Origin: Chiloscyllium plagiosum | Taxonomy: Eukaryota | Direction of reading: 5' to 3' | DNA: 38,059 nt | Assembly (NCBI RefSeq): GCF_004010195.1 | Contig: NC_057719.1 | Span: 45,940,782-45,978,840, forward strand | Shown here: positions 1,587-34,540 of the stretch, piece by piece | How the letters are laid out: each line of letters starts with the position of its first letter | Numbering within the stretch: the stretch's first letter is position 1 | Translations under genes and position numbers: made by a program | Notes under the pieces: model-generated | What the model saw: the letters and a program-made list of their open reading frames with translations, nothing else | Told to the model about the DNA's origin: nothing | Database searches by the model: none

Positions 1587-3001
1587 ACAGTGGAAGACAT
1601 GAGTAATATCCCAACAATTAAAGGGAGTCAGGGGGCTGAGTTGAGTATGGTGGCCATTACAAAAGAGAAAGTGCTAGAAAAGCTAAAAGGTCTTAAAATT
1701 GATAAATCTCCTGGCCCTGATGGATTACATCCTAGAGTTCTGAGGGAGGTGGCTGAGGAAATAGCAGAGGTGTTGGTTGAGATGTTTCAAAAGTCACTGG
1801 AGTCAGGGAAAGTCCCAGATGATTGGAAGATCATTGTTGTAACCCCCTTGTTCAAGAAAGGATCAAGACAAAAGATGGAAAATTATAAGCCAATTAGCCT
1901 AATCTCGGTTGTTGGTAAAATTCTAGAATCCATCATTAAGAATGAGGTTTNNNNNNNNNNNNNNNNNNNNNNNNNNNNNNNNNNNNNNNNNNNNNNNNNN
2001 NNNNNNNNNNNNNNNNNNNNNNNNNNNNNNNNNNNNNNNNNNNNNNNNNNNNNNNNNNNNNNNNNNNNNNNNNNNNNNNNNNNNNNNNNNNNNNNNNNNN
2101 NNNNNNNNNNNNNNNNNNNNNNNNNNNNNNNNNNNNNNNNNNNNNNNNNNNNNNNNNNNNNNNNNNNNNNNNNNNNNNNNNNNNNNNNNNNNNNNNNNNN
2201 NNNNNNNNNNNNNNNNNNNNNNNNNNNNNNNNNNNNNNNNNNNNNNNNNNNNNNNNNNNNNNNNNNNNNNNNNNNNNNNNNNNNNNNNNNNNNNNNNNNN
2301 NNNTTCTTAGAACAGCTGGTGCTGGAGCCTACCAGGGAGAAGGCAATTCTGGATCTGGTATTGTGCAACGAACCAGAATTGATCAGGGGCCTCGAAGTGA
2401 AGGAGCCATTGGGAAGTAGTGACCATAATACAATAAGCTTCAATCTGCAATTTGAGAGGGAGAGGGTACAAATGAAAGTGATAATATTTCTATTAAATAA
2501 AGGGAACTATGGAGCTATAAGATCATAAGGCATAGGAGCGGAAGTAAGGCCATTCAGCCCATCGAGTCCACTCTGCCATTCAATCATGGCTGATGGGCAT
2601 TTCAACGCCACTTACCCGCACTCTCCCCATATCCCTTAATTCCTTGAGAGATGGCTTGGAGAGGGTGGACGCTAGGAAATTTTTCTGTTAGGCGAGGAGA
2701 CTAGGACCCGTGGACACAGCTTTAGAATTAGAGGGGGTAAATTCAGAATAGAAATGCGGAGACATTTCTTCAGCCAGAGAGTGGTGGGTCTGTGGAATTC
2801 ATTGCCACAGAGTGCAGTGGAGGCTGGGACGCTAAATGTCTTCAAGGCAGAAATTGATAAATTCTTGATGTCACAAGGAATTAAGGGCTACGGGGAAAAT
2901 GCGGGTAAGTAGAGTTGAAATGCCCATCAGCCGTGATTGAATGGCGGAGTGGACTCGATGGGCCGAATGGCCTTACTTCCGCTCCTATGTCTTATGGTCT
3001 T
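1587..3001 (+). mobile_element. Nested CR1 fragments of a second subfamily (RT N-terminal part, endonuclease C-terminal part, inverted tail, 3' end)
   Basis: KSPGPDGLHPRVL...PLFKKG before the gap; PTREKAILDLVL...LGSSDHN after it; tail ctatgtcttatggtcttat; flanking atcc at 1583-1586 and 3002-3005. Confidence 0.85.
1951..2303. other. Assembly gap (353 N)
   Basis: Run of N. Confidence 1.
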
Positions 3002-4859
3002 ATCCCCAGGACCTGATCAGGTGTACCCGAGAACTTTGTGGGAAGCTAGGGAAGTGATTGCTGGACCTCTTGCTGAGATATTTGTATCATCTATAGTCAC
3101 AGGTGAAGTGCCGGAAGACTGGAGGTTGGCTAACATGGTGCCACTGTTTAAGAAGGGTGGTAAGGACAAGCCAGGGACAAATAGACCAGTGAGCCTGATG
3201 TCGGTGGTGGGCACATTGTTGGAGGGAATCCCTAGGGACAGGATGTACATGTATTTGGAAAGGCAAGGATTGATTAGAGGTGGTCAACATGGCTTTGTGC
3301 ATGGGAAATCATGTCTCGTAAACTTGATTGAGTTTTTTGAAGAAGTAATAGAGTATTGATGAGGGCAGAGCGGTGGACATAATCCATATGGACTTCAGTA
3401 AGGCATTCGACAAGGTTCCCCATGGAACACTAGTTAACAAGATTAGATCTCATGGAGTACAGGGAGAACTAGAACTAGCCATTTGGATACAGAACTGGCT
3501 CAAAGGTAGAAGACAGAGGATGGTGGTGGAGGGTTGTTTTTCAGACTGGAGGCCTGTGACCAGTAGAGTGGCACGAGGATCGGTGCTGGGTCCACTACTT
3601 TTCATCCATAATATAAATGATTTGGATGTGAGCGTAAGAGTTATAGTTAGTAAGTTCGCAAATGACACCAAAATAGGAGGTGTAGTGGACAGCGAAGGTT
3701 ATCTCAGATTACAGTGTGATCTTGACCAGATGGGCCATTGGGCTGAGAAGTGTCAGATGGAGTTTAATTCAGATAAATGCGAGGTGCTGCATTTTGGGAA
3801 AGCAAATCTTAGCAGGACTTATACACTAAATGGTAAGGTCCTAGGGAGTGTTGCTGAACAAAGAGGCCTTGGAGTGCAGGTTCATCGCTCCTTGAAAGTG
3901 GAGTCGCAGGTAGATAGGATTGTGAAGAAGGCGATTAGTATGCTTTCCTTTATTGGTCAGAGTATTGAGTACAGGAGTTGGGAGGTCATGTTGCAGCTGT
4001 ACGGGACATTGGTTAGACCACTGTTGGAAAGATGTTGTGAAACGTGAAAGGGTTCAGAAAAGATTTACAAGGATGTTGCCAGAGTTGGAGGATTTGAGCT
4101 ATAGGGAGAGGTTGAATAGGTTAGGGTTGTTGTTTCCCTGGAGCGACAGAGGCTGAGAGGTGACCTTATAGAGGTTTACACAATCATGAGGGGTATGGAT
4201 AGGCTAAATAGACAAAGTCTTTTCCCTGGGGTGGGGGAGTCCAGAACTAGAGGGCATAGGTTTAGGGTGAGAGGAGAAAGATATAAAAGAGACCTAAGGG
4301 GCCACTTTTTCACGCAGAGGGTGGCACGTGTATGGAATGAGCTGCCAGAGGCAATGGTGGAGGCTAGTACAATTGCAACGTTCAAAAGGCATTTGGATGG
4401 GTATATGAATAAGAGGGGTTTGGAGGGATACGGTCTGGGTGCTGGCAGGTTGGGACTCGTTTGGGTTGGGATATCTAGTCGACATGGGCAAGTTGGACCA
4501 AAGTGTCTGTTTCCATGCTGTACATCTCTGACTGTAATTGAGATCACAGTACTACTTGTTGTGACACACCACTGCTTACAGACAGTCCCCCAAGTTGCGT
4601 ATGGGTTCTGGTCTGGAGTCCATTTGCAGTTTGATTTGTTTGCAAGTCAGAAAACCATATAAAGAAGTAGTTTCTAAGTACAGGAAATGTTCGCATGTCG
4701 GGTACTCAAATTTATATCCCTGTATAAGGTCACATTCGTATGTGTGAACATTCATTTGTCAGATCCTTTTAAATCGGGACCTTTTGTAAATCTTGCTGAC
4801 CTCAAAAAGACTTCCTGTTCGTTAGCTAATCATTCATTTGTGCAAATATGCTGTCTCCC

Positions 4860-12048: not shown

Positions 12049-12109
12049 ATATTTAGTTTTGGATATTGCTGACAATCCAGTGGAGAATATTATACGATAT
12101 TTCCCTGTG
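12049..12109 (+). CDS. STYX: STYX coding exon (61 nt)
   Basis: cttgtgcttgcag|A TAT...GTG|gtaagt; (R)YLVLDIADNPVENIIRYFPV; phase joins the previous exon (AG+A). Confidence 0.97.
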
Positions 12110-13711
12110 GTAAGTACTTTCTGCATTTCTGGTTGTCTGTCTTTCTTGTGTTTCTTCCTACTTACATAATACATTACTTTATTTTTAAAAAAAATCCCAA
12201 GTTTTGTGAACATGTGTCTAGTACATTATAACCTGAATTTAACTATCAATAGTTTTTAAAAGGTAGAATTGCATTTGTTCTAGTTTTAAATATCTATTAT
12301 TTCATCATTGTGACTGTACTTCCCATTTTTTTTGTCAGGATAACTTTGCTTGTTACTAAAATGAACACAAAAATGCTGCAGCATCCCAGCAAAAAGTAGA
12401 GTTTATGTTTCAAGTAGAGTATTGCTGTTCAGAACAGAAATTGGTTGGAAAATGGTGACGTTTTAATATAATTTTGCTACAGATGCAAAGGAGGAGCAAA
12501 GTGGGGGGAGGTGGCAGATGGTGTGGAGGACTAGTGCAAAAGACGAAAGAGTTGCTCATTGGAGTCAAGGAGGAATAGAGGTATAGCACAGATGTAAATT
12601 AAGGTGTGCAAAGGTCAGAGTGGGTCCTCATAGCTGAGAGCAAAGTAAACAAGACAAGTCTGTTGAGTGTAGAGAGAATATAAGAAAAATGGAAGGTAGA
12701 TGTCATGAGTTCAGTCTCTGAAGTTGTATAATTCAGTATTGAGTCCTAGAAGTTGTAAAATGTCAAAGTGGAAAATAAGGTGGTATTTCCCAGAGCATAT
12801 GCTGTGCTTTGATGGAACATTGCAATAGGCTCTGCACAGATATGTTAACAGAAAGGGTCAATGAAGGTCATGCCATTGATGTAATGCACATGAACTTCCA
12901 GGAGGCATTTGACATGATTATGGCAACATTGATGCAAAAGTGAATAAATGATAAGTAACAGTGGATATTTATTTGACTAGAATAGGATATGTGGTCCAGC
13001 TGCCCAAGGCTCAGTTTTGGGATCCTTGCTTGTCTTCGCATACATTAATAATTTAGATCTTGATGTACACTTGGAAAATTTGATGTTTGTGAATGATACA
13101 AAGTTTAGAAGCGTTGTAAACTGTGAGGAAGCTAGTAAGAACTTCAAACGATAGAGACAGATTTGCAGAGTGAGTGTATAGGTGGCAGGTGAAGTTCAAT
13201 GTAAAAAAGTTAAGATACAAAATAAGGAGTAACACTAAAGGAGGTGCAAGAACAGAGGGACAAGGATGTGTAAGTGCATAGACATTGAAGATGGAGACAG
13301 CAATTGACAAAACGTTGTATTCTGAGCTTGCTTAATTGTACCTTGGAGTAGAAGAGCAAGGAGGTGATACTGAACTTATAAGACACTTGTCAGACCTTGG
13401 TTGGAGTATTTTGAAAAATTCAGGGTGCCACAGTCTGAAGAATGTAAAAGCATTGGAGTGAGTGCAGAAGAGTTTTACAGGCATGGTTCTAGGGATAAGA
13501 TACTTCACTTACGAGAATATATTGGAGAGCTTTGGACTGCTCTCCTTGGAGAGAAGAAAGCTAAGAGGAGATCTGATAGAAGTTTTCAGAATGATGAGTA
13601 GGTGCTGGGGTGAAACTAGGTAAAAACAATGACTGCAGATGCTGGAAACCAGATTTTGGATTAGTGGTGCTGGAAGAGCACAGCAGTTCAGGCTGCATCC
13701 GTGGAGCAGCA

Positions 13712-13749
13712 AAATCGACGTTTCGGGCAAAAGCCCTTCTTCAGGAATA
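13712..13749 (-). ncRNA. Minimal type I hammerhead ribozyme motif (opposite arm)
   Basis: Minus strand attc CTGAAGA a GGGC tttt GCCC GAAA C GTC gatt. Confidence 0.72.
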
Positions 13750-13758
13750 AAAGGCTTT

Positions 13759-13796
13759 TATTCCTGATGAAGGGCTTTTGCCCGAAACGTCGATTT
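13759..13796 (+). ncRNA. Minimal type I hammerhead ribozyme motif
   Basis: attc CTGATGA a GGGC tttt GCCC GAAA C GTC gatt; core complete, predicted cleavage after C13791; palindromic ACGT in place of helix III. Confidence 0.75.
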
Positions 13797-14571
13797 TGCT
13801 GCTCCTCGGATGCTGCCCGAACTGCTGTGCTCTTCCAGCACCACTAATCCAAAAGCTGGGGTGAAACTGCTGCTCATAAAAGGATCAAGAATGAGAGGAT
13901 GCGGATTTAATGTCTCACACAAAAGAAGTGAATGTAATGTACAAATAAAACTTTTCTAAACCACAAGTGGTTCAAGTCTGGAATACATGGGATGGAGGTA
14001 TGGTGGCGGCAGTTTCATTTGAGGCATTCCAGAGGGCACTGTGATTTTTAAATAGCCTGGCATGTTGTTTCTGTGTGGAAAAGGCAGGAGAGTGGCACCA
14101 AGTCATGGTGCCCATTTCGAGAGCGGGTGCAGATTTGATGGGCTGAAAGGTTGCTGCCTCTCCTGGAACATTTCTGAGATGCATGCCAGGAATATTTTGC
14201 ATCGTTATGGTTCATGTTCAGAATTAGTTTCAGGAAATAATCAATATTGGCTTTGTTTCCTGGTAGCCAAATGATCTGAATTGTGTTTGGACATGATTAT
14301 TGTATCAAGATTCATCAGCTACAACAGAATATGTGTATTGACCTAACACAGCTCAACAAAATAGTAGCTAGGGAAGTCCATCCATGTCAAGTAACTTGGG
14401 TTGAAGACTGAACAATAAATAAGTCTTGGCGGAAGAGACACTTACCTCTAGCAAGTTAAGGTTTCTTGAATTTAAGTAATTGTATACAGATTACGTTATA
14501 CACTTGGTAACAAGAAGAATAGAAGACATGAATGACTAACTACTACTGCTGAGATCTACCCAATGCTCCAT

Positions 14572-16000
14572 AAGACCATAAAGTCTAGGAACAAAAGTAG
14601 GCCATTCAGCCAATAGAGCAGCGAAAGTGAGGACTGCAGGTGCTGGAGATCAGAGTCAAGATTAGAGTGGTGCTGGAAAAGCACAGCAGGTCAGGCAGCA
14701 TCCGAGAAGCAGGAATATCAACGTTTCTGGCACCCGGATAGGTGGGAAGGAAGATTGGCAGGTAGGACAGTTCACGAGGATGGTGCTGAGCTGGAAGGTT
14801 GGAACTGGGGTAAGGTGGAGGGGGGAGGGGAAGTGAGGAAACTGGTGAACTCCACGCTAAGAGTGCAATAGGTGGATGCTCATTCATCCAATTGAGTCTA
14901 CTCTGCCATTCAATGTAATCATGGTTGATCTGATCATACTCAGTTCCATTTTCCTGCCTTTTTTGTAGAACCCTTGATTCCCATACTGATTGATAATCTG
15001 TCTATCTCAGCCTTGAATATTCTTAACTTCACAGCCTTGAGAGACCTCTTTTGTAAAGAATTCCACAGATTCACCACCCTCGAAGAAATTCCTCCTCATC
15101 TGTATTTCAGATGTGCTACTCTTATGGCCCTCTGATCCTCAACTCTCCCACATGGGGAAGCAACCTTTTTGCATCAACACTGTCTCTTCTATGTTTCAAT
15201 AAGACTGCCTCTCATTCTTCTAAATTTCGAGTACAGGCCCAACCATATCCAGGTTCAATCTAGTGAACCTTCTCTAGACCACCTCCAATGCCAATATATC
15301 TTTCCTTAGATTAGGGTAAATAAAACTGTTCACGGTATTCTAGCTTTGGTCTTACTATTGCCTTTTATAGTTTTAGCAAAATCTCCCTATTCTTATATTC
15401 CATTCCCTTTGAAATAAAGCCCAGACTTTCCTTTGCCATTCCTATTGCCCACTGAACTTGGATACTAGCTTTTTGCACAGGGATGCAAATCCCTCTGTGC
15501 TATAGTTTTCTGCAGTCTTTATCTATTGAAATCATATTTCACTCCTCTCCCCTTCTTGCCAAAGTGCATAATCTCACATTTTCCCTCTGTTCCATCTACC
15601 ATGTTTCTGCCCAATCGTTTAACCTGTCTATATTCCTCCACAGACTCTTATCTTCACCACTTGCCTTTCCACCTATTTTGTGTAATCTTGTAAACTTGGC
15701 CATAATTCATTTCACTTTCCTCATCCAGTATTGTAACAATTGTGGCTCCAGCACTGGTCCCTGTGGCACACTGCTAGTTACAGGTTATCATCCTGAAAAT
15801 GCCCCCCTTATTCCAATTGTCTTCTGCCAGGCAGTCACACCTCTATCCATGCTAATGTATTCCTTTCAATACTTTTTTTGATCTCCTTCCCTTTATAAAT
15901 AAAAGCGTTACATTGGCAACTCTCCAATTTCTGGACTTTTTCAGAATGTAAGGATTTTTGAAAGATTACTACCAGTGCCTCCACTATCTCTGTAGCTTCT
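14572..16000 (-). mobile_element. Old CR1 LINE relic
   Basis: Starts with reversed tail cataagaccataa...gtaggccattcagcc; agcactggtccctgtggcacac encodes VPQGPVL on the minus strand. Confidence 0.78.
14619..14880. mobile_element. Penelope-type short insertion (same family as 13618), hammerhead segment partly deleted
   Basis: Shares gtggtgctggaaaagcacagcaggtcaggcagcatccga; imperfect 16-bp TSD cattcagccaatagag (14603-14618) / cattcatccaattgag (14881-14896). Confidence 0.78.
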
Positions 16001-16018
16001 TGTAATACTTACTATGAT

Positions 16019-16249
16019 CAAAGTTTTTGCGAAGATTTGTAGCTCGAGTGCTCGTTGTTGTGGTTCTGTTCGCCGAGCTGGAAGTTTTTGTTGCAAACAT
16101 TTCGTCCCCTGGCTAGGCGACATCATCAGTGCTTGGGAGCCTCCTGCGACGCGCTTCTTTGATGTTTCCTCCGTTGTTTATAGTGGTCTGTCCCTGCCGC
16201 TTCCGGCTGTCAGTTTCAGCTGTCTGCTGTAGTGGTTGGTATATTGGAT
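16019..16249 (-). mobile_element. Penelope-type terminal fragment (second family) with 14-bp TSD and hammerhead motif
   Basis: atacttactatgat at 16005-16018 and 16250-16263; CpG-rich interior; minus strand gca CTGATGA t GTCGCC tagcca GGGGAC GAAA tgtt tgc at 16093-16132. Confidence 0.82.
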
Positions 16250-16680
16250 ATACTTACTATGATAGAATTAAAACTTGAACATATTTCTACTTGGAATAGG
16301 TCTTGTAACTAATTAGAACTGGTAAATTAGAACTCAAAACTCAACCTATAATTGTGTTTGATATAGGTCTTGCAATTAAAGTTACAGTGTACTCAAAATT
16401 TTACAGTATCATCAATTTGTAAGGGATATATTTTGCAATGAAGTTGAATACCTAAGTTGATTAATAAAGCGATGCTTATGGGTATTTTAAGTCTTTCACA
16501 TTTTGATGTACTTTTTACACCCTGTTCATTAGTATGTGTGGCCATGTTATACAGAAGAATATTAATATAATAATACCCAGTACATTCATCTGAAATGTTG
16601 TTTGCCAGTCATATTAATCATTTCAAATGAAATGGTTTAGCATCATCACTAATTGAGAAAATTCAGACAAATGCGTGAAT

Positions 16681-17240
16681 GGATGTAAGTTTGCTTGCTG
16701 AGCTGAAAGCTTCATTTTCAGACATTTCATCACCATACTATGTACCATTGTCAATGAGCCTCTGGTGAAGAGCTGGTCTTACGTCCCGCTTTCTATTTGT
16801 GTTTAGGTTTCCTTGGGTTGGTGATGTCATTTCTGGTGTTGGTATTATTTCCTGTGCTTTTTCTAAGAGGGTGGTAAATGGGGTCCAAGTCAATGTGTTT
16901 TTTTGATCCCGGTTGGCATGCCGTACTTCCAAGAATTCTTATGCGGTCTCGATTTGGCTTGTCCAAGGATGGATGTGTTGTCCCAGTTAAAGTGGTGTCC
17001 TTCCTCATCTGTATGTAAGGATACTAGTGATAGTAGGTCATGTCTTTTTGTGGCATCACCAACCCAAGGAAACTTAAACACAAATGGAAAGTGGGAAATA
17101 ACACCAGCGCATCACCAGAGAATTACTGATGATGTTACCTAGTATTGTGACAAAACATCTGAAAATGAACCTTCCAGCTTACCGAGCAAACTTACATCCA
17201 GAACCTCAAACTGAGCTGCAAATCTTCTCAAAACTTGCTA
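16681..17240. mobile_element. Penelope-like element remnant with inverted terminal segments
   Basis: Arms ~16681-16830 and ~17051-17199; centre encodes HDLLSLVSLHTDEEGHHFNWDNTSILGQAK on minus (GIY-YIG C-terminal-like); TSD aaatgcgtgaat/aaatgcatgaat at 16669-16680 and 17241-17252. Confidence 0.85.
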
Positions 17241-17625
17241 AAATGCATGAATATTAACTTCTTGTCACATTTACAGACCTTATTCTTACTCCTTAACTTT
17301 GTGCCTATGATATTGATAGTTTTTTTAAAAATAATTATCTGAAGTGTATGTTGAAAGGTTTGACTTGTTCTTATTTTGTGTACAAAAGATCTTTTCATTA
17401 AACATCAAAAGATTGAGTGTATTCCATCCAATATCTGTGCAATTAGAATTGAACTGATGCCTTTTGTTTTGGCAGTATAAATGTATTTCCAGGTTCATTC
17501 ATTAATTGTCTAAAGCAGCCTTTGCTATACAGATTTCTTTTAAATAAAATACATGAAGATTTCATCTTGGGTGTTCCTGATATCTCTCAACAGATATTGT
17601 TATTTGTTTGTACATACACACAAAT

Positions 17626-17840
17626 ACGTGTATGGAATGAGCTGCCAGAGGAAGTGGTGGAGCCTGGTACAATTGCAACATTTAAGAGTCATTTGGATGG
17701 GTATATGAATAGGAAGGGTTTGGAGGGATTTGGGCCGGGTGCTGGCAGGTGGGACGAGATTGGGTTGGGATATCTGGTCGGCGTGGACAGGTTGGACCGA
17801 AGGGTCCGTTTCCATGCTGTACATCTCTATGACTCTATAG
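17626..17840 (+). mobile_element. Short 5'-truncated CR1/HER1 3' end
   Basis: RVWNELPEEVVE..TIATFK.HLD; tail catgctgtacatctctatgactctat; same family as 4327-4533. Confidence 0.9.
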
Positions 17841-18830
17841 TGGAAAGGCAGAATGTGGGTTGATATCTACAGTTTTATCCAATGGTATTTCTAATTCCTG
17901 ATTATTTCATAGAAATGCTCTGAAGCAAAACAGTATATCAAAGTCCTGTATGCATGTGATTTAATAAGATGTTATAGTGTGTTTAATATCACCAGACATC
18001 TCTTGTATGTTTGTACAATTCACTTGCATAATGAATATCCGAGCAACAATGTTAAGTATTTTTGGAGCATAACTCCAAAAAAGATCTTAGCTGAAATGCT
18101 TTCCTATTTAATTGTGAAATATATTCAGTTGCATGTGCTTTGTAGTTCTGCAAGGGGTGAATCGGGTTAGACCAGAAGTCAGATATGTTAAAAGATACCA
18201 AAAATGTGCTGTTGTAAATAGTTTTTGTGAATCAGCCCATTAAAACTGAAATTACAAAATTGAGAGAATGAATCATCTTAAATTTTGAAATAACAAGGTC
18301 TTCCAAAAGTGAAGATTCAGCTGTACCACCCAGTTCAGCAGATGGGTGACTTGAGGTAGCTACTGGAATAATGGGGCCCAGTTATGTAGTATTCCCAATT
18401 ACGTTTTAATCCTTTTCTTAGCGGGGAAGCTGCTGCAGCTTCACCACAATGTAAGCACAGTTTATTGGGAGGTTAGATGGGCCTCAAAAGTAACAAGACT
18501 CTCATTCTACTATTTAGCTGGTTGTCAGCATGCCTGGCTGTGTGCTGAATGGCCTGCCTTTCATTCCCATCCACCAGCCAAACTGTTGGTTCGGCTTTTA
18601 AGACCGATTTGCACTTTTCCTGCTCTCTACCAATCTGAAATTCACTAAGGTTTAGAGCCAATCCCTTTGTATTTACTATTTGAGACGTTTGAATATAATA
18701 TTGCATTCCAGTGGAAGAGCTTTGGTGTATTTACAACACTTTTTATTGCAAACTTTCTTTTCTAATTTGTATGTAAGTAAGGAATGGGTGTAAGAAAGAA
18801 ATCTTCTGGTTTGCTTGGTTCACTCACATT

Positions 18831-18918
18831 CAAAAAGTGTGGCCTTGAAATAGCACAGTAGGTCAGGCAGCATCTGAGGAGCAGGAGAGTCTATGTTTCA
18901 GGCATAAGCCCTTGACTG
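18831..18918. mobile_element. Short Penelope-type fragment (13618 family)
   Basis: agcacagtaggtcaggcagcatctgaggagcaggagagtctatgtttcaggcataagccc; possible 7-bp TSD tcacatt. Confidence 0.7.
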
Positions 18919-19098
18919 TCACATTGTTTGTTACATTTATTTTAGCTTTATTTTATGCTAATCAGACCTGTCTAGAACCTAGTATAAGCATGTTCAAATC
19001 GCCAAAGATTTCCATTAAATGCTAGTTCCCTTTGAAAAGTAATTGTAATACGAAGATTATGTGAGAAATATATATTTTTATTTTTGTTATTTCTTCAG

Positions 19099-19135: not shown

Positions 19136-19221
19136 GTAAAGATCTGATTTTTGATTAGTTTTCATAATGTTTTGCACAAACAAAGCTATGGTGATGTATC
19201 CTGGCCACTTTGCTTTCTCAG

Positions 19222-19261
19222 GGAAGGTTCTTTTACATGGAAATGCAGGTATTTCTCGAAG
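19222..19261 (+). CDS. STYX: STYX coding exon (40 nt) carrying the degenerate phosphatase signature
   Basis: tgctttctcag|GG AAG...CGA AG|gtaaga; (G)KVLLHGNAGISR(S), with Gly in place of the catalytic Cys. Confidence 0.97.
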
Positions 19262-22917: not shown

Positions 22918-23235
22918 CAAAAAGTGTGGCGCTGGAAAAGCACAGCAGATCAGGCAGCATCTGAGGAGCAGGAGATTCGATGTTTCAGGCATAAGCCCTT
23001 ATCAGGAATGGGAGAGAGGGGTGGGGAAGAGGGGTTAGGTAGTTGGGAAGGTGATAGGTTGATATAGGGTGGGGGGTGATGGTGATATGTCAGAGGGGAG
23101 GGTGGAGTGGATAGCTGGGAAGGAAGATGGGCAGATAGGACAGTTCAAGAGGGCGGTGCCGAGTTGGAGGGTCTGGGATGAGTTGAAGTTTCCTTTTCTC
23201 CCCTCCCCCCACCTCATCCCAGATCCAATCATCCA
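22918..23235. mobile_element. Penelope-type fragment (13618 family) with G-rich body
   Basis: gctggaaaagcacagcagatcaggcagcatctgaggagcaggagattcgatgtttcaggcataagcccttatcaggaat; purine-rich part resembles 14735-14850. Confidence 0.75.
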
Positions 23236-24978: not shown

Positions 24979-25115
24979 GCTTGATTCCTGAAGAAGGGCT
25001 TATGCCCGAAACGTCGATTCTCCTGTTCCCTGGATGCTGCCTGACCTGCTGCGCTTTTCCAGCAACATATTTTCAACTCTGATCTCCAGCATCTGCAGAC
25101 CTCACTTTCTCCCCA
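24979..25115 (+). mobile_element. Penelope-type terminal fragment (13618 family)
   Basis: Matches the right arm of the 13618 element and the reverse complement of 14623-14725. Confidence 0.85.
24983..25020 (+). ncRNA. Minimal type I hammerhead ribozyme motif
   Basis: gattc CTGAAGA a GGGC ttat GCCC GAAA C GTC gattc; predicted cleavage after C25015. Confidence 0.75.
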
Positions 25116-33977: not shown

Positions 33978-34540
33978 AGTAGATTTGTAGCTCAGATTGT
34001 AACTTTGCTCGTTGAGCTGGCAGATTTTTTCTCAGATGTTTTGTCACAGTGCTAGGTAACATCATCAACGAGCCTCTGATGAAGCGCTGCTGTTTTGTCT
34101 TGTTTGCTATTTGTATGTCTTGGTCTGTTGTGGTGAGTGATATCACATCCAGTTCTTTTTCTGAGAGGTTGGTAAATGGAGTCAAAATCGATATGTTAGT
34201 TAATGGAGCTCAGGTTTGAATGCCAGGCCTCTAGGAATTCCCGTGTGTGTCTTTGTTTAGCCTGTCCCACATTGTCCTAGTCAAACTGGTGTCCCTCTGT
34301 CTGTGTGTATGGATACCAATGATACTTGGTCTATCACTGTCAACTCCATTAACAAACATATCGATTTGGAGCCTATTTACCAACCTCAGAAAAAGAACTG
34401 GATGTGATATCACTCACCACAACAGACCAAAGCACACAAGTAGCAAGCAGGACAGAACACCAGCGCTTCATCGGAGGCTCATTGATGATGATACCTAGTA
34501 TTGTGACAAAACATCTGAGAACAAATCTGCAAGCTCAGCT
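33978..34540. mobile_element. Penelope-like remnant with ~195-bp inverted arms (16681 family)
   Basis: Arms ~34013-34208 and ~34344-34540; decayed hammerhead ttgatgatg.tacctag...tgtgacaaaacatc in both arms. Confidence 0.85.

What the first reader, a model, noticed from the sequence alone, without database searches (positions are those of the whole stretch)
13604..13868. Young palindromic insertion with an intact hammerhead core on each strand inside a STYX intron
Seen: a 237-bp insert with a perfect 14-bp TSD, two 100-bp inverted arms (4 mismatches, essentially no spacer), and CUGANGA-a-GGGC-UUUU-GCCC-GAAA-C-GUC in each arm. Established: Penelope-like elements carry minimal hammerheads and often insert with inverted terminal repeats. 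Inference: in the STYX pre-mRNA the sense ribozyme is masked by its own upstream antisense arm, forming a ~100-bp dsRNA that could be an ADAR or Dicer substrate, and a cruciform in DNA. This self-masking may be why it is tolerated.
Basis: partly seen in the sequence, partly recalled or inferred. Interest (0 to 1): 0.72.

Follow-up and report, generated by a model that had tools for sequence, protein, structure and literature searches.

The report
Head-to-head Penelope fragment in STYX intron
The palindrome is a short piece of a very abundant Penelope-type retrotransposon inserted as two back-to-back copies of its ribozyme-bearing end, a layout seen at thousands of other places in this genome and already described for this class; its ribozymes are likely inactive passengers here, although family-wide a modest excess of copies begins exactly at the ribozyme's predicted cut site.

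Summary
In detail: 237-bp insert (13618-13854), 14-bp TSD, 100-bp arms with 4 mismatches, a minimal hammerhead core on each strand, inside a STYX intron. The insert is the 3' end of a Neptune-type PLE with at least 17,938 copies; 2,090 exact head-to-head hammerhead junctions exist genome-wide, and 30 of 89 sampled copies have an adjacent inverted arm. Inverted repeat plus tail and opposite-strand hammerhead pairs are in print. 'Self-masking explains tolerance' is unsupported: most copies are unmasked, minimal hammerheads are reported inactive as monomers, and the core decays like its flanks. The insert seems shared with a related species, so it is not very recent. Two family-level results add something. 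In 12 of 30 palindromes neither arm contains the other, which favours two separate priming events. Copy 5' ends are about twice as frequent at the hammerhead cut site as nulls predict, in two families; microhomology explains much of this, but not the excess over the next bases. The scan noted similar palindromes before, in this and other genomes. Ordinary locus; modest testable lead.

The parts
13604..13617 (+). left target-site duplication (14 bp)
   Evidence: identical to 13855-13868
13618..13653 (-). 36-nt PLE 'tail', present on the left arm only
   Evidence: its 34-nt core matches 17,938 places exactly; in long copies the tail runs on into the ORF 5' region
13654..13754 (-). left arm: 3' part of the pLTR, antisense to STYX
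13717..13744 (-). minimal type I hammerhead core (CUGAAGA...GAAAC-GUC), predicted cut after 13717
13755..13854 (+). right arm: tail-less inverted pLTR copy, sense to STYX; ends about 36 nt short of the tail end
   Evidence: 20 of 30 inverted arms end 31-39 nt short of the tail end
13764..13791 (+). minimal type I hammerhead core (CUGAUGA...GAAAC-GUC), predicted cut after 13791
13855..13868 (+). right target-site duplication (14 bp)
12109..19097 (+). host STYX intron (GT...AG) that contains the insert
   Evidence: exon motifs, PDB 2r0b matches, boundaries

Best explanation
The insert is a 5'-truncated, head-to-head insertion of the ribozyme-bearing end (pLTR) of a high-copy, likely Neptune-type Penelope-like retrotransposon, likely made when both nicked target strands each primed reverse transcription and the two short cDNAs were joined at the centre. 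Shown: family identity, tail on one arm only, TSD, abundance of the same layout. Inferred steps: (1) the element's GIY-YIG endonuclease nicks the two strands about 14 bp apart; (2) one 3'-OH primes at the distal internal start site (arm with tail), the other at the proximal site about 36 nt upstream (tail-less arm), the two sites Frangieh et al. mapped in vitro for the anole PLE; (3) both cDNAs run 37-39 nt past the predicted hammerhead cut site, so both templates were uncut RNA, and they stop in the zone where many copies stop; (4) the ends are joined with about 1 nt of overlap and gap fill makes the TSD. In the STYX pre-mRNA the arms would pair into a ~100-bp hairpin. The single sense hammerhead lacks the in-cis partner that minimal hammerheads need, so it is likely an inactive passenger under no selection, masked or not.
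For: Longer copies continue into an ORF end with GIY-YIG (Pfam PF01541 in 3 of 4 fragments, 2 above the curated cut-off). Its 32 longer homologues mostly carry PF00078 (read as RT from recall). CX4CxxC precedes the GIY-YIG in the translations. 30 of 89 unbiased copies have an adjacent inverted arm; 20 of these 30 stop 31-39 nt short of the tail end; a TSD of 13-20 bp (mode 15) was found in 24 of 30. In 12 of those 30 (read by eye) the tail-less arm reaches at least 10 nt further 5' than the tailed arm, so neither arm can be a simple copy of the other. Arms differ in subfamily in 4 of 30 scored palindromes. 17 of 89 5' ends fall 27-37 nt upstream of the cut site, only 7 in the next 56 nt. Layout described in PMC8557442 and PMC3846280; two RT start sites bracketing the tail in PMC11167929; monomer inactivity in PMC4209133.
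Against: 26 of 30 palindromes have both arms from one subfamily (7.6 expected by shuffling), which a single-template fold-back also predicts. Asymmetric centres could arise by later deletion inside a palindrome. No intact full-length parent ORF was seen in the loci opened, and no RT tree was built, so the Neptune label rests on the linker motif. The two-primer step has not been shown in vitro for any PLE in the papers read.
Confidence: 0.8

Rival explanations
1. Same element, but the palindrome arises by self-priming/fold-back: one cDNA (or an antisense template) folds at its end and copies itself, and the endonuclease trims the second arm about 36 nt short (proposed by Arkhipova et al. 2013; tail by EN resolution in Craig et al. 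2021).
For: 26 of 30 arm pairs share subfamily alleles; both arms here share the rarer ATCCAAAA allele; near-zero spacers are common; PMC3846280 discussion passage.
Against: 12 of 30 palindromes have a tail-less arm reaching further 5' than the tailed arm; 4 of 30 pair different subfamilies; tail-less ends match the second RT start site of PMC11167929.
Confidence: 0.25
2. One reading: the sense ribozyme would harm STYX pre-mRNA unless masked, and the antisense arm silences it, which explains tolerance (and perhaps gives a regulated ADAR/Dicer substrate).
For: Predicted hairpin of -186.6 kcal/mol buries the core; both cores are intact here while 18 of 40 sampled copies keep core plus stem II.
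Against: Unmasked copies dominate (49 of 79 short copies). An unmasked sense sister copy with intact core lies in another STYX intron. Published single minimal hammerheads do not cleave, and the anole one needs its protein (PMC4209133, PMC11167929). No significant excess conservation of the core.
Confidence: 0.06
3. A non-autonomous DNA transposon (MITE/foldback) or a miRNA hairpin.
For: Long inverted arms and a TSD; Rfam E-value hits to miRNA families.
Against: Arms meet in the centre and are unequal at the ends; TSD length varies 13-20 bp; the sequence is contiguous with a retrotransposon ORF; all 9 Rfam hits are below gathering scores.
Confidence: 0.02

Closest known systems
Endonuclease-positive Penelope-like elements with inverted 5'-truncated pLTR and 30-40 bp tail (Drosophila virilis Penelope; Adineta vaga Pen2/Pen2a; Craig et al. 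2021 Fig. 2 legend)
   Same: Head-to-head pLTR copies, tail on one end only, TSD, strong 5' truncation, C-terminal GIY-YIG in the parent
   Different: Here the unit is reduced to two ~100-137 nt pLTR ends with no ORF; TSD mode 15 bp against the 8-10 bp quoted for A. vaga; copy number in the tens of thousands
Minimal type I hammerheads of metazoan PLEs (Cervera and De la Pena 2014, PMC4209133)
   Same: Core boxes, extra nucleotide before stem II, G10.1-C11.1, palindromic ACGU in place of helix III; that paper also notes pairs 100-700 bp apart on opposite strands
   Different: Helix II is 4 bp (7-8 bp in the Schistosoma families) and helix I only 2 bp plus one pair after a U.U mismatch; activity untested
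Poseidon element of Anolis carolinensis (Frangieh et al. 2024, PMC11167929)
   Same: Hammerhead about 120 nt upstream of the tail end; two internal ends bracketing a ~35-nt tail; uncut RNA as the main template
   Different: The parent here has the CX2-5CxxC linker that Penelope/Poseidon lack; the ATG in the core does not open the long frame here; that study saw no RNA ends at the cut site, whereas genomic 5' ends here show an excess at it
Animal (non-LTR) retrozymes (bioRxiv 10.64898/2026.07.22.740005)
   Same: Non-coding, hammerhead-bearing, PLE-derived
   Different: Retrozymes are head-to-tail tandem units; this is head-to-head and dispersed

Membership tests
EN+ Penelope-like element | Parent ORF with RT followed by C-terminal GIY-YIG endonuclease | tested here: met
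   GIY-YIG in 3 of 4 fragments; homologues with PF00078; ORF end contiguous with the arm. No intact full-length copy seen.
EN+ Penelope-like element | Two cysteines between GIY and YIG (CCHH motif) | tested here: met
   IIYCIRCSRCGLLYIG in translations; motif defined in PMC8557442; histidines not aligned formally
EN+ Penelope-like element | pLTR with optional 30-40 bp tail that overlaps the ORF 5' end | tested here: met
   36-nt tail on one arm; 5 of 100 copies continue past the tail into the ORF 5' region; L326 shows the pLTR reading into the ORF frame
EN+ Penelope-like element | Adjacent inverted 5'-truncated copy and TSD | tested here: met
   this locus; 30 of 89 copies, TSD in 24 of 30
EN+ Penelope-like element | RT groups with PLE/telomerase RTs; retained spliceosomal intron | not tested
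   no tree built; a pyrimidine tract plus CAG about 45 nt upstream of the cut site was seen by eye only
Neptune/Nematis clades | CX2-5CxxC linker upstream of GIY-YIG | tested here: met
   CHRRNCKTC in parent translations; definition in PMC8557442. Neptune versus Nematis not resolved by a tree
Minimal type I hammerhead | CUGANGA, GAAA, NUH, extra nt before stem II, G10.1-C11.1, palindromic 15.2-16.2 | tested here: met
   sequence of both arms
Minimal type I hammerhead | Helix I of 4-5 bp | tested here: not met
   only C-G and U-A, then U.U, then A-U (read); D. virilis has a 2-bp helix I per PMC4209133
Minimal type I hammerhead | Self-cleavage as a dimer or with protein help | not testable with these tools
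   needs an assay; Rfam gave no hammerhead hit at E<=1
Non-LTR retrozyme | Head-to-tail tandem units each with a hammerhead | tested here: not met
   single head-to-head unit
MITE / foldback DNA transposon | Inverted repeats at both termini and fixed TSD length | tested here: not met
   36-nt unpaired tail at one end; TSD 13-20 bp across copies

The most novel reading that the evidence does not exclude
The genome keeps a footprint of hammerhead cleavage in vivo: a few per cent of PLE insertions were reverse-transcribed from RNA already cut at C17, so their 5' ends start exactly at the first base after the cut. With the finding that the two arms are often independent cDNAs, this would mean a dimeric PLE complex primes from both nicked strands on two pLTR RNAs, possibly held together by the hammerhead dimer. 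It would give the first genomic evidence that vertebrate PLE minimal hammerheads cut in the germ line.
Probability: 0.35. Interest if true: 0.6.

Novelty: new member of a known kind. Interest (0 to 1): 0.27.

Why it matters
The locus itself matters little: it is one of thousands of like palindromes in this genome. The family is useful as a very large natural sample of PLE insertion products. How PLEs make inverted repeats and what their hammerheads do in vivo are stated as open in PMC8557442, PMC4209133 and PMC11167929. Tens of thousands of young copies let both questions be tested by counting junctions genome-wide. The thousands of intronic ~100-bp hairpins may also be a main source of dsRNA in this animal (inference; untested).

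Tried and rejected
Rfam scan: no hammerhead family hit, only sub-threshold miRNA hairpins; rejected as hairpin artefacts. Apparent 5'-end pile at -87 to -89 was an artefact of a divergent reference and was re-mapped. The genome-wide contrast of 315 ends at the cut site versus 31 at -3 looked decisive but is reproduced by a 4-6 nt microhomology model on a CpG-poor genome (ratios 9-13), so it is not used as evidence of cleavage. Under those models the 17-of-76 and 12-of-51 excesses lose significance (p 0.10-0.58). Selection on the core: none detected. No RNA holder listed for the locus. RNA run X21 gave family reads on both strands but none on the unique flanks and no pile-up of read ends; X22 laid nothing: no test of editing, small RNAs or cleavage. 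PDB search with a parent ORF fragment: 0 hits. Intact autonomous copy: not found; only L175-L185, L326 and L327 were opened, 7 other long loci were fetched but not read. The paper on dimer cleavage of PLE hammerheads (PMC5785218) was not held, so I saw only its title in a reference list. Literature searches for a shark PLE description or for truncation at the cut site returned nothing on either; subscription papers, Repbase/Dfam and all supplements were not seen, and these may name this family.

Full report
1. Observation. The 14-bp direct repeat, 237-bp insert and two 100-bp arms with four mismatches are as described. Each arm holds CUGANGA-A-GGGC-UUUU-GCCC-GAAA-C-GUC, with C17 at 13791 (+) and 13717 (-). 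STYX exons lie on the + strand; two of them match human STYX in the PDB, and the insert is in the intron 12109-19097. Public contigs from organism A (X1, which may be the source sample; X7, another study, right junction only among the pieces shown) and organism B (X13) carry the outer junctions. They reach 23-30 letters into the insert, below the tool's 31-letter rule, and none spans the centre. Organism B differs by 8 letters and 2 gaps in 275 and by 6 letters and 2 gaps in 372 of flank, so the insertion likely predates that split.

2. Family. The left arm matches many places at 94-97%. The 34-nt tail core occurs exactly 17,938 times. Longer copies run upstream into an ORF end that scores as GIY-YIG in 3 of 4 fragments. 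One such fragment has 32 longer homologues, most with PF00078 (RT by recall of the accession). The translations show CX4CxxC before the nuclease and cysteines between GIY and YIG, the Neptune/Nematis pattern defined in PMC8557442 (passages read). In L326 the pLTR and tail read on into the ORF 5' region, as in PLE partial tandems. I found no intact parent in the 13 long loci opened. That the host is a shark-like fish is my recall and the wording of earlier scan notes, not a result.

3. The layout is common. An exact head-to-head pattern of two cores within 30 nt matches 2,090 places, control 0 (shared with sister families); 1,264 have this family's UUUU loop. I took the first 100 tail matches on contig 1 and dropped 11 at assembly gaps. 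Of the 89 left, 30 have an adjacent inverted arm (10 copies of 199 nt or more were not tested for one). Twenty of the 30 arms stop 31-39 nt short of the tail end, and 24 of 30 units have a 13-20 bp TSD, mode 15. Among 49 short plain copies a TSD was found in only 15. Inverted 5'-truncated copies with a 30-40 bp tail at one end are described in PMC8557442 and PMC3846280 (passages read). Opposite-strand hammerhead pairs 100-700 bp apart are noted in PMC4209133 (parts 1-2 of 4 read).

4. Mechanism. PMC11167929 (parts 1-2 of 4 read) shows that the anole PLE protein cuts and extends both strands and starts reverse transcription at two internal sites bracketing the tail. The two outer ends here fit those two sites. 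In 12 of 30 palindromes the tail-less arm extends at least 10 nt further 5' than the tailed arm (by eye), and 4 of 30 scored pairs mix subfamilies. Simple fold-back of one cDNA gives neither, though later central deletion could mimic the first. Against this, 26 of 30 pairs share a subfamily (7.6 by shuffling), which fits either one tandem transcript or fold-back. Both arms of this insert pass the cut site by 37-39 nt, so they were copied from uncut RNA. They end at the edge of the zone 27-37 nt upstream of the cut site where 17 of 89 copies end.

5. The ribozyme at this locus. The insert is predicted to fold into one long hairpin on either strand (-186.6 and -188.6 kcal/mol), so masking is plausible physically. 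It is not needed to explain tolerance. Most copies are unmasked. A sense sister copy with an intact core lies in another STYX intron without a nearby inverted partner. Single minimal hammerheads showed no cleavage in PMC4209133, and the anole one needed protein. Helix I is weak here. Across 40 copies the core differs from the column majority at 10 of 400 non-CpG sites against 66 of 1,880 in the arm (p=0.36), and 18 of 40 keep core plus stem II. The core is unchanged between this family and its sister while loop II and downstream bases differ, which fits selection on source elements only. RNA data were uninformative for the locus.

6. Side result: 5' ends at the cut site. Four of 89 unbiased copies start exactly at the first base after C17, position 0. 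Genome-wide patterns demanding three non-matching upstream bases gave 315 at 0, 141 at +1 and 31 at -3; a uniform-truncation simulation predicts ratios near 1.05 and 1.4-1.9. In position-blind samples, 17 of 76 ends (focal family, -7..+4; edge bins -8 and +5 dropped from 100) and 12 of 51 (sister family, -7..+3; 70 scored of the first 71 listed, one at a gap and edge bins dropped) were at 0. Expected were 8.0 and 6.8 (p=0.002, 0.03). Results against: of 30 loci from the position-0 list, about 13 abut an inverted arm and 5-6 are internal deletions or small indels, and 15 of the 100 listed read CCT|GATTT, a 3-nt microhomology with the core itself (by eye). Three of five position-0 copies with a TSD at the junction have 4-5 nt of GATT(T) supplied by the target. 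A model requiring 4-6 nt microhomology in a CpG-poor genome reproduces the 0/-3 ratio and removes significance of the overall excess (p 0.10-0.58). What it does not reproduce is the excess of 0 over the next bases: 315 vs 141 (model ratio 0.8-1.3), 17 of 39 (p 0.002-0.017) and 12 of 24 (p 0.002-0.016); flank-only 10-11 of 24-25, p 0.01-0.08. That last comparison was chosen after seeing the data. The endonuclease's ATT preference (PMC11167929) and RT stalling at the folded core remain untested rivals. Earlier scan notes reported no pile-up in a small check, or blamed a four-letter palindrome; my larger sample finds a modest residual excess. I put cleavage as its cause at about 35%. My searches found no paper reporting such an excess; unseen supplements and subscription papers may.

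7. Verdict. A real, ordinary insertion of a known class: new member of a known kind, interest 0.27. The value lies in the family as a test bed for PLE mechanism, not in this STYX locus. Other papers: 10.64898/2026.07.22.740005 parts 1-2 of 5 read; PMC6765202 and PMC2377424 passages only.

Noticed in passing
window 24981-25098 (+), 14632-14732 (-), 18846-18913 (-), 22926-23009 (-): Four older family or sister-family copies in STYX introns (79-84% to the arm); the 24981 copy has an intact core on the sense strand. Opposite-strand copies 2-10 kb apart could pair in the pre-mRNA.
   Followed up: partly
window 13330-13603 and 13869-14080: The insert sits inside a decayed LINE ORF end (translation LGLLSLERRKLRGDLIEVFRMM); CR1-like by recall, not tested.
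   Followed up: no
window 16100-16129 (-): A second, different hammerhead-like motif (CUGAUGA...GACGAAAUGUU) picked up by the motif scan; possibly another PLE family.
   Followed up: no
window 34013-34537, 2517-3003, 16680-17200: Other long inverted repeat pairs (82-90% identity, 136-196 bp arms) in the window self-comparison.
   Followed up: no
L186, L187, L214 and 15 of 100 rows: Copies in which CCT of the 5' core is joined directly to GATTT, deleting the whole hammerhead core through a 3-nt GAT microhomology.
   Followed up: partly
family-wide, 27-37 nt upstream of the cut site: 17 of 89 5' ends fall here with a sharp drop further upstream; the zone holds TTATTCC and lies just 3' of a possible splice acceptor (pyrimidine tract, CTTCAG|GCTCTC). 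Cause unknown.
   Followed up: no
L282, L304, L347, L374: Palindromes centred on the ACGT/TCGA self-complementary bases beside the cut site.
   Followed up: partly
window 19221-19260: STYX exon carries HGNAG, the glycine in place of the catalytic cysteine typical of this pseudophosphatase (recalled).
   Followed up: no
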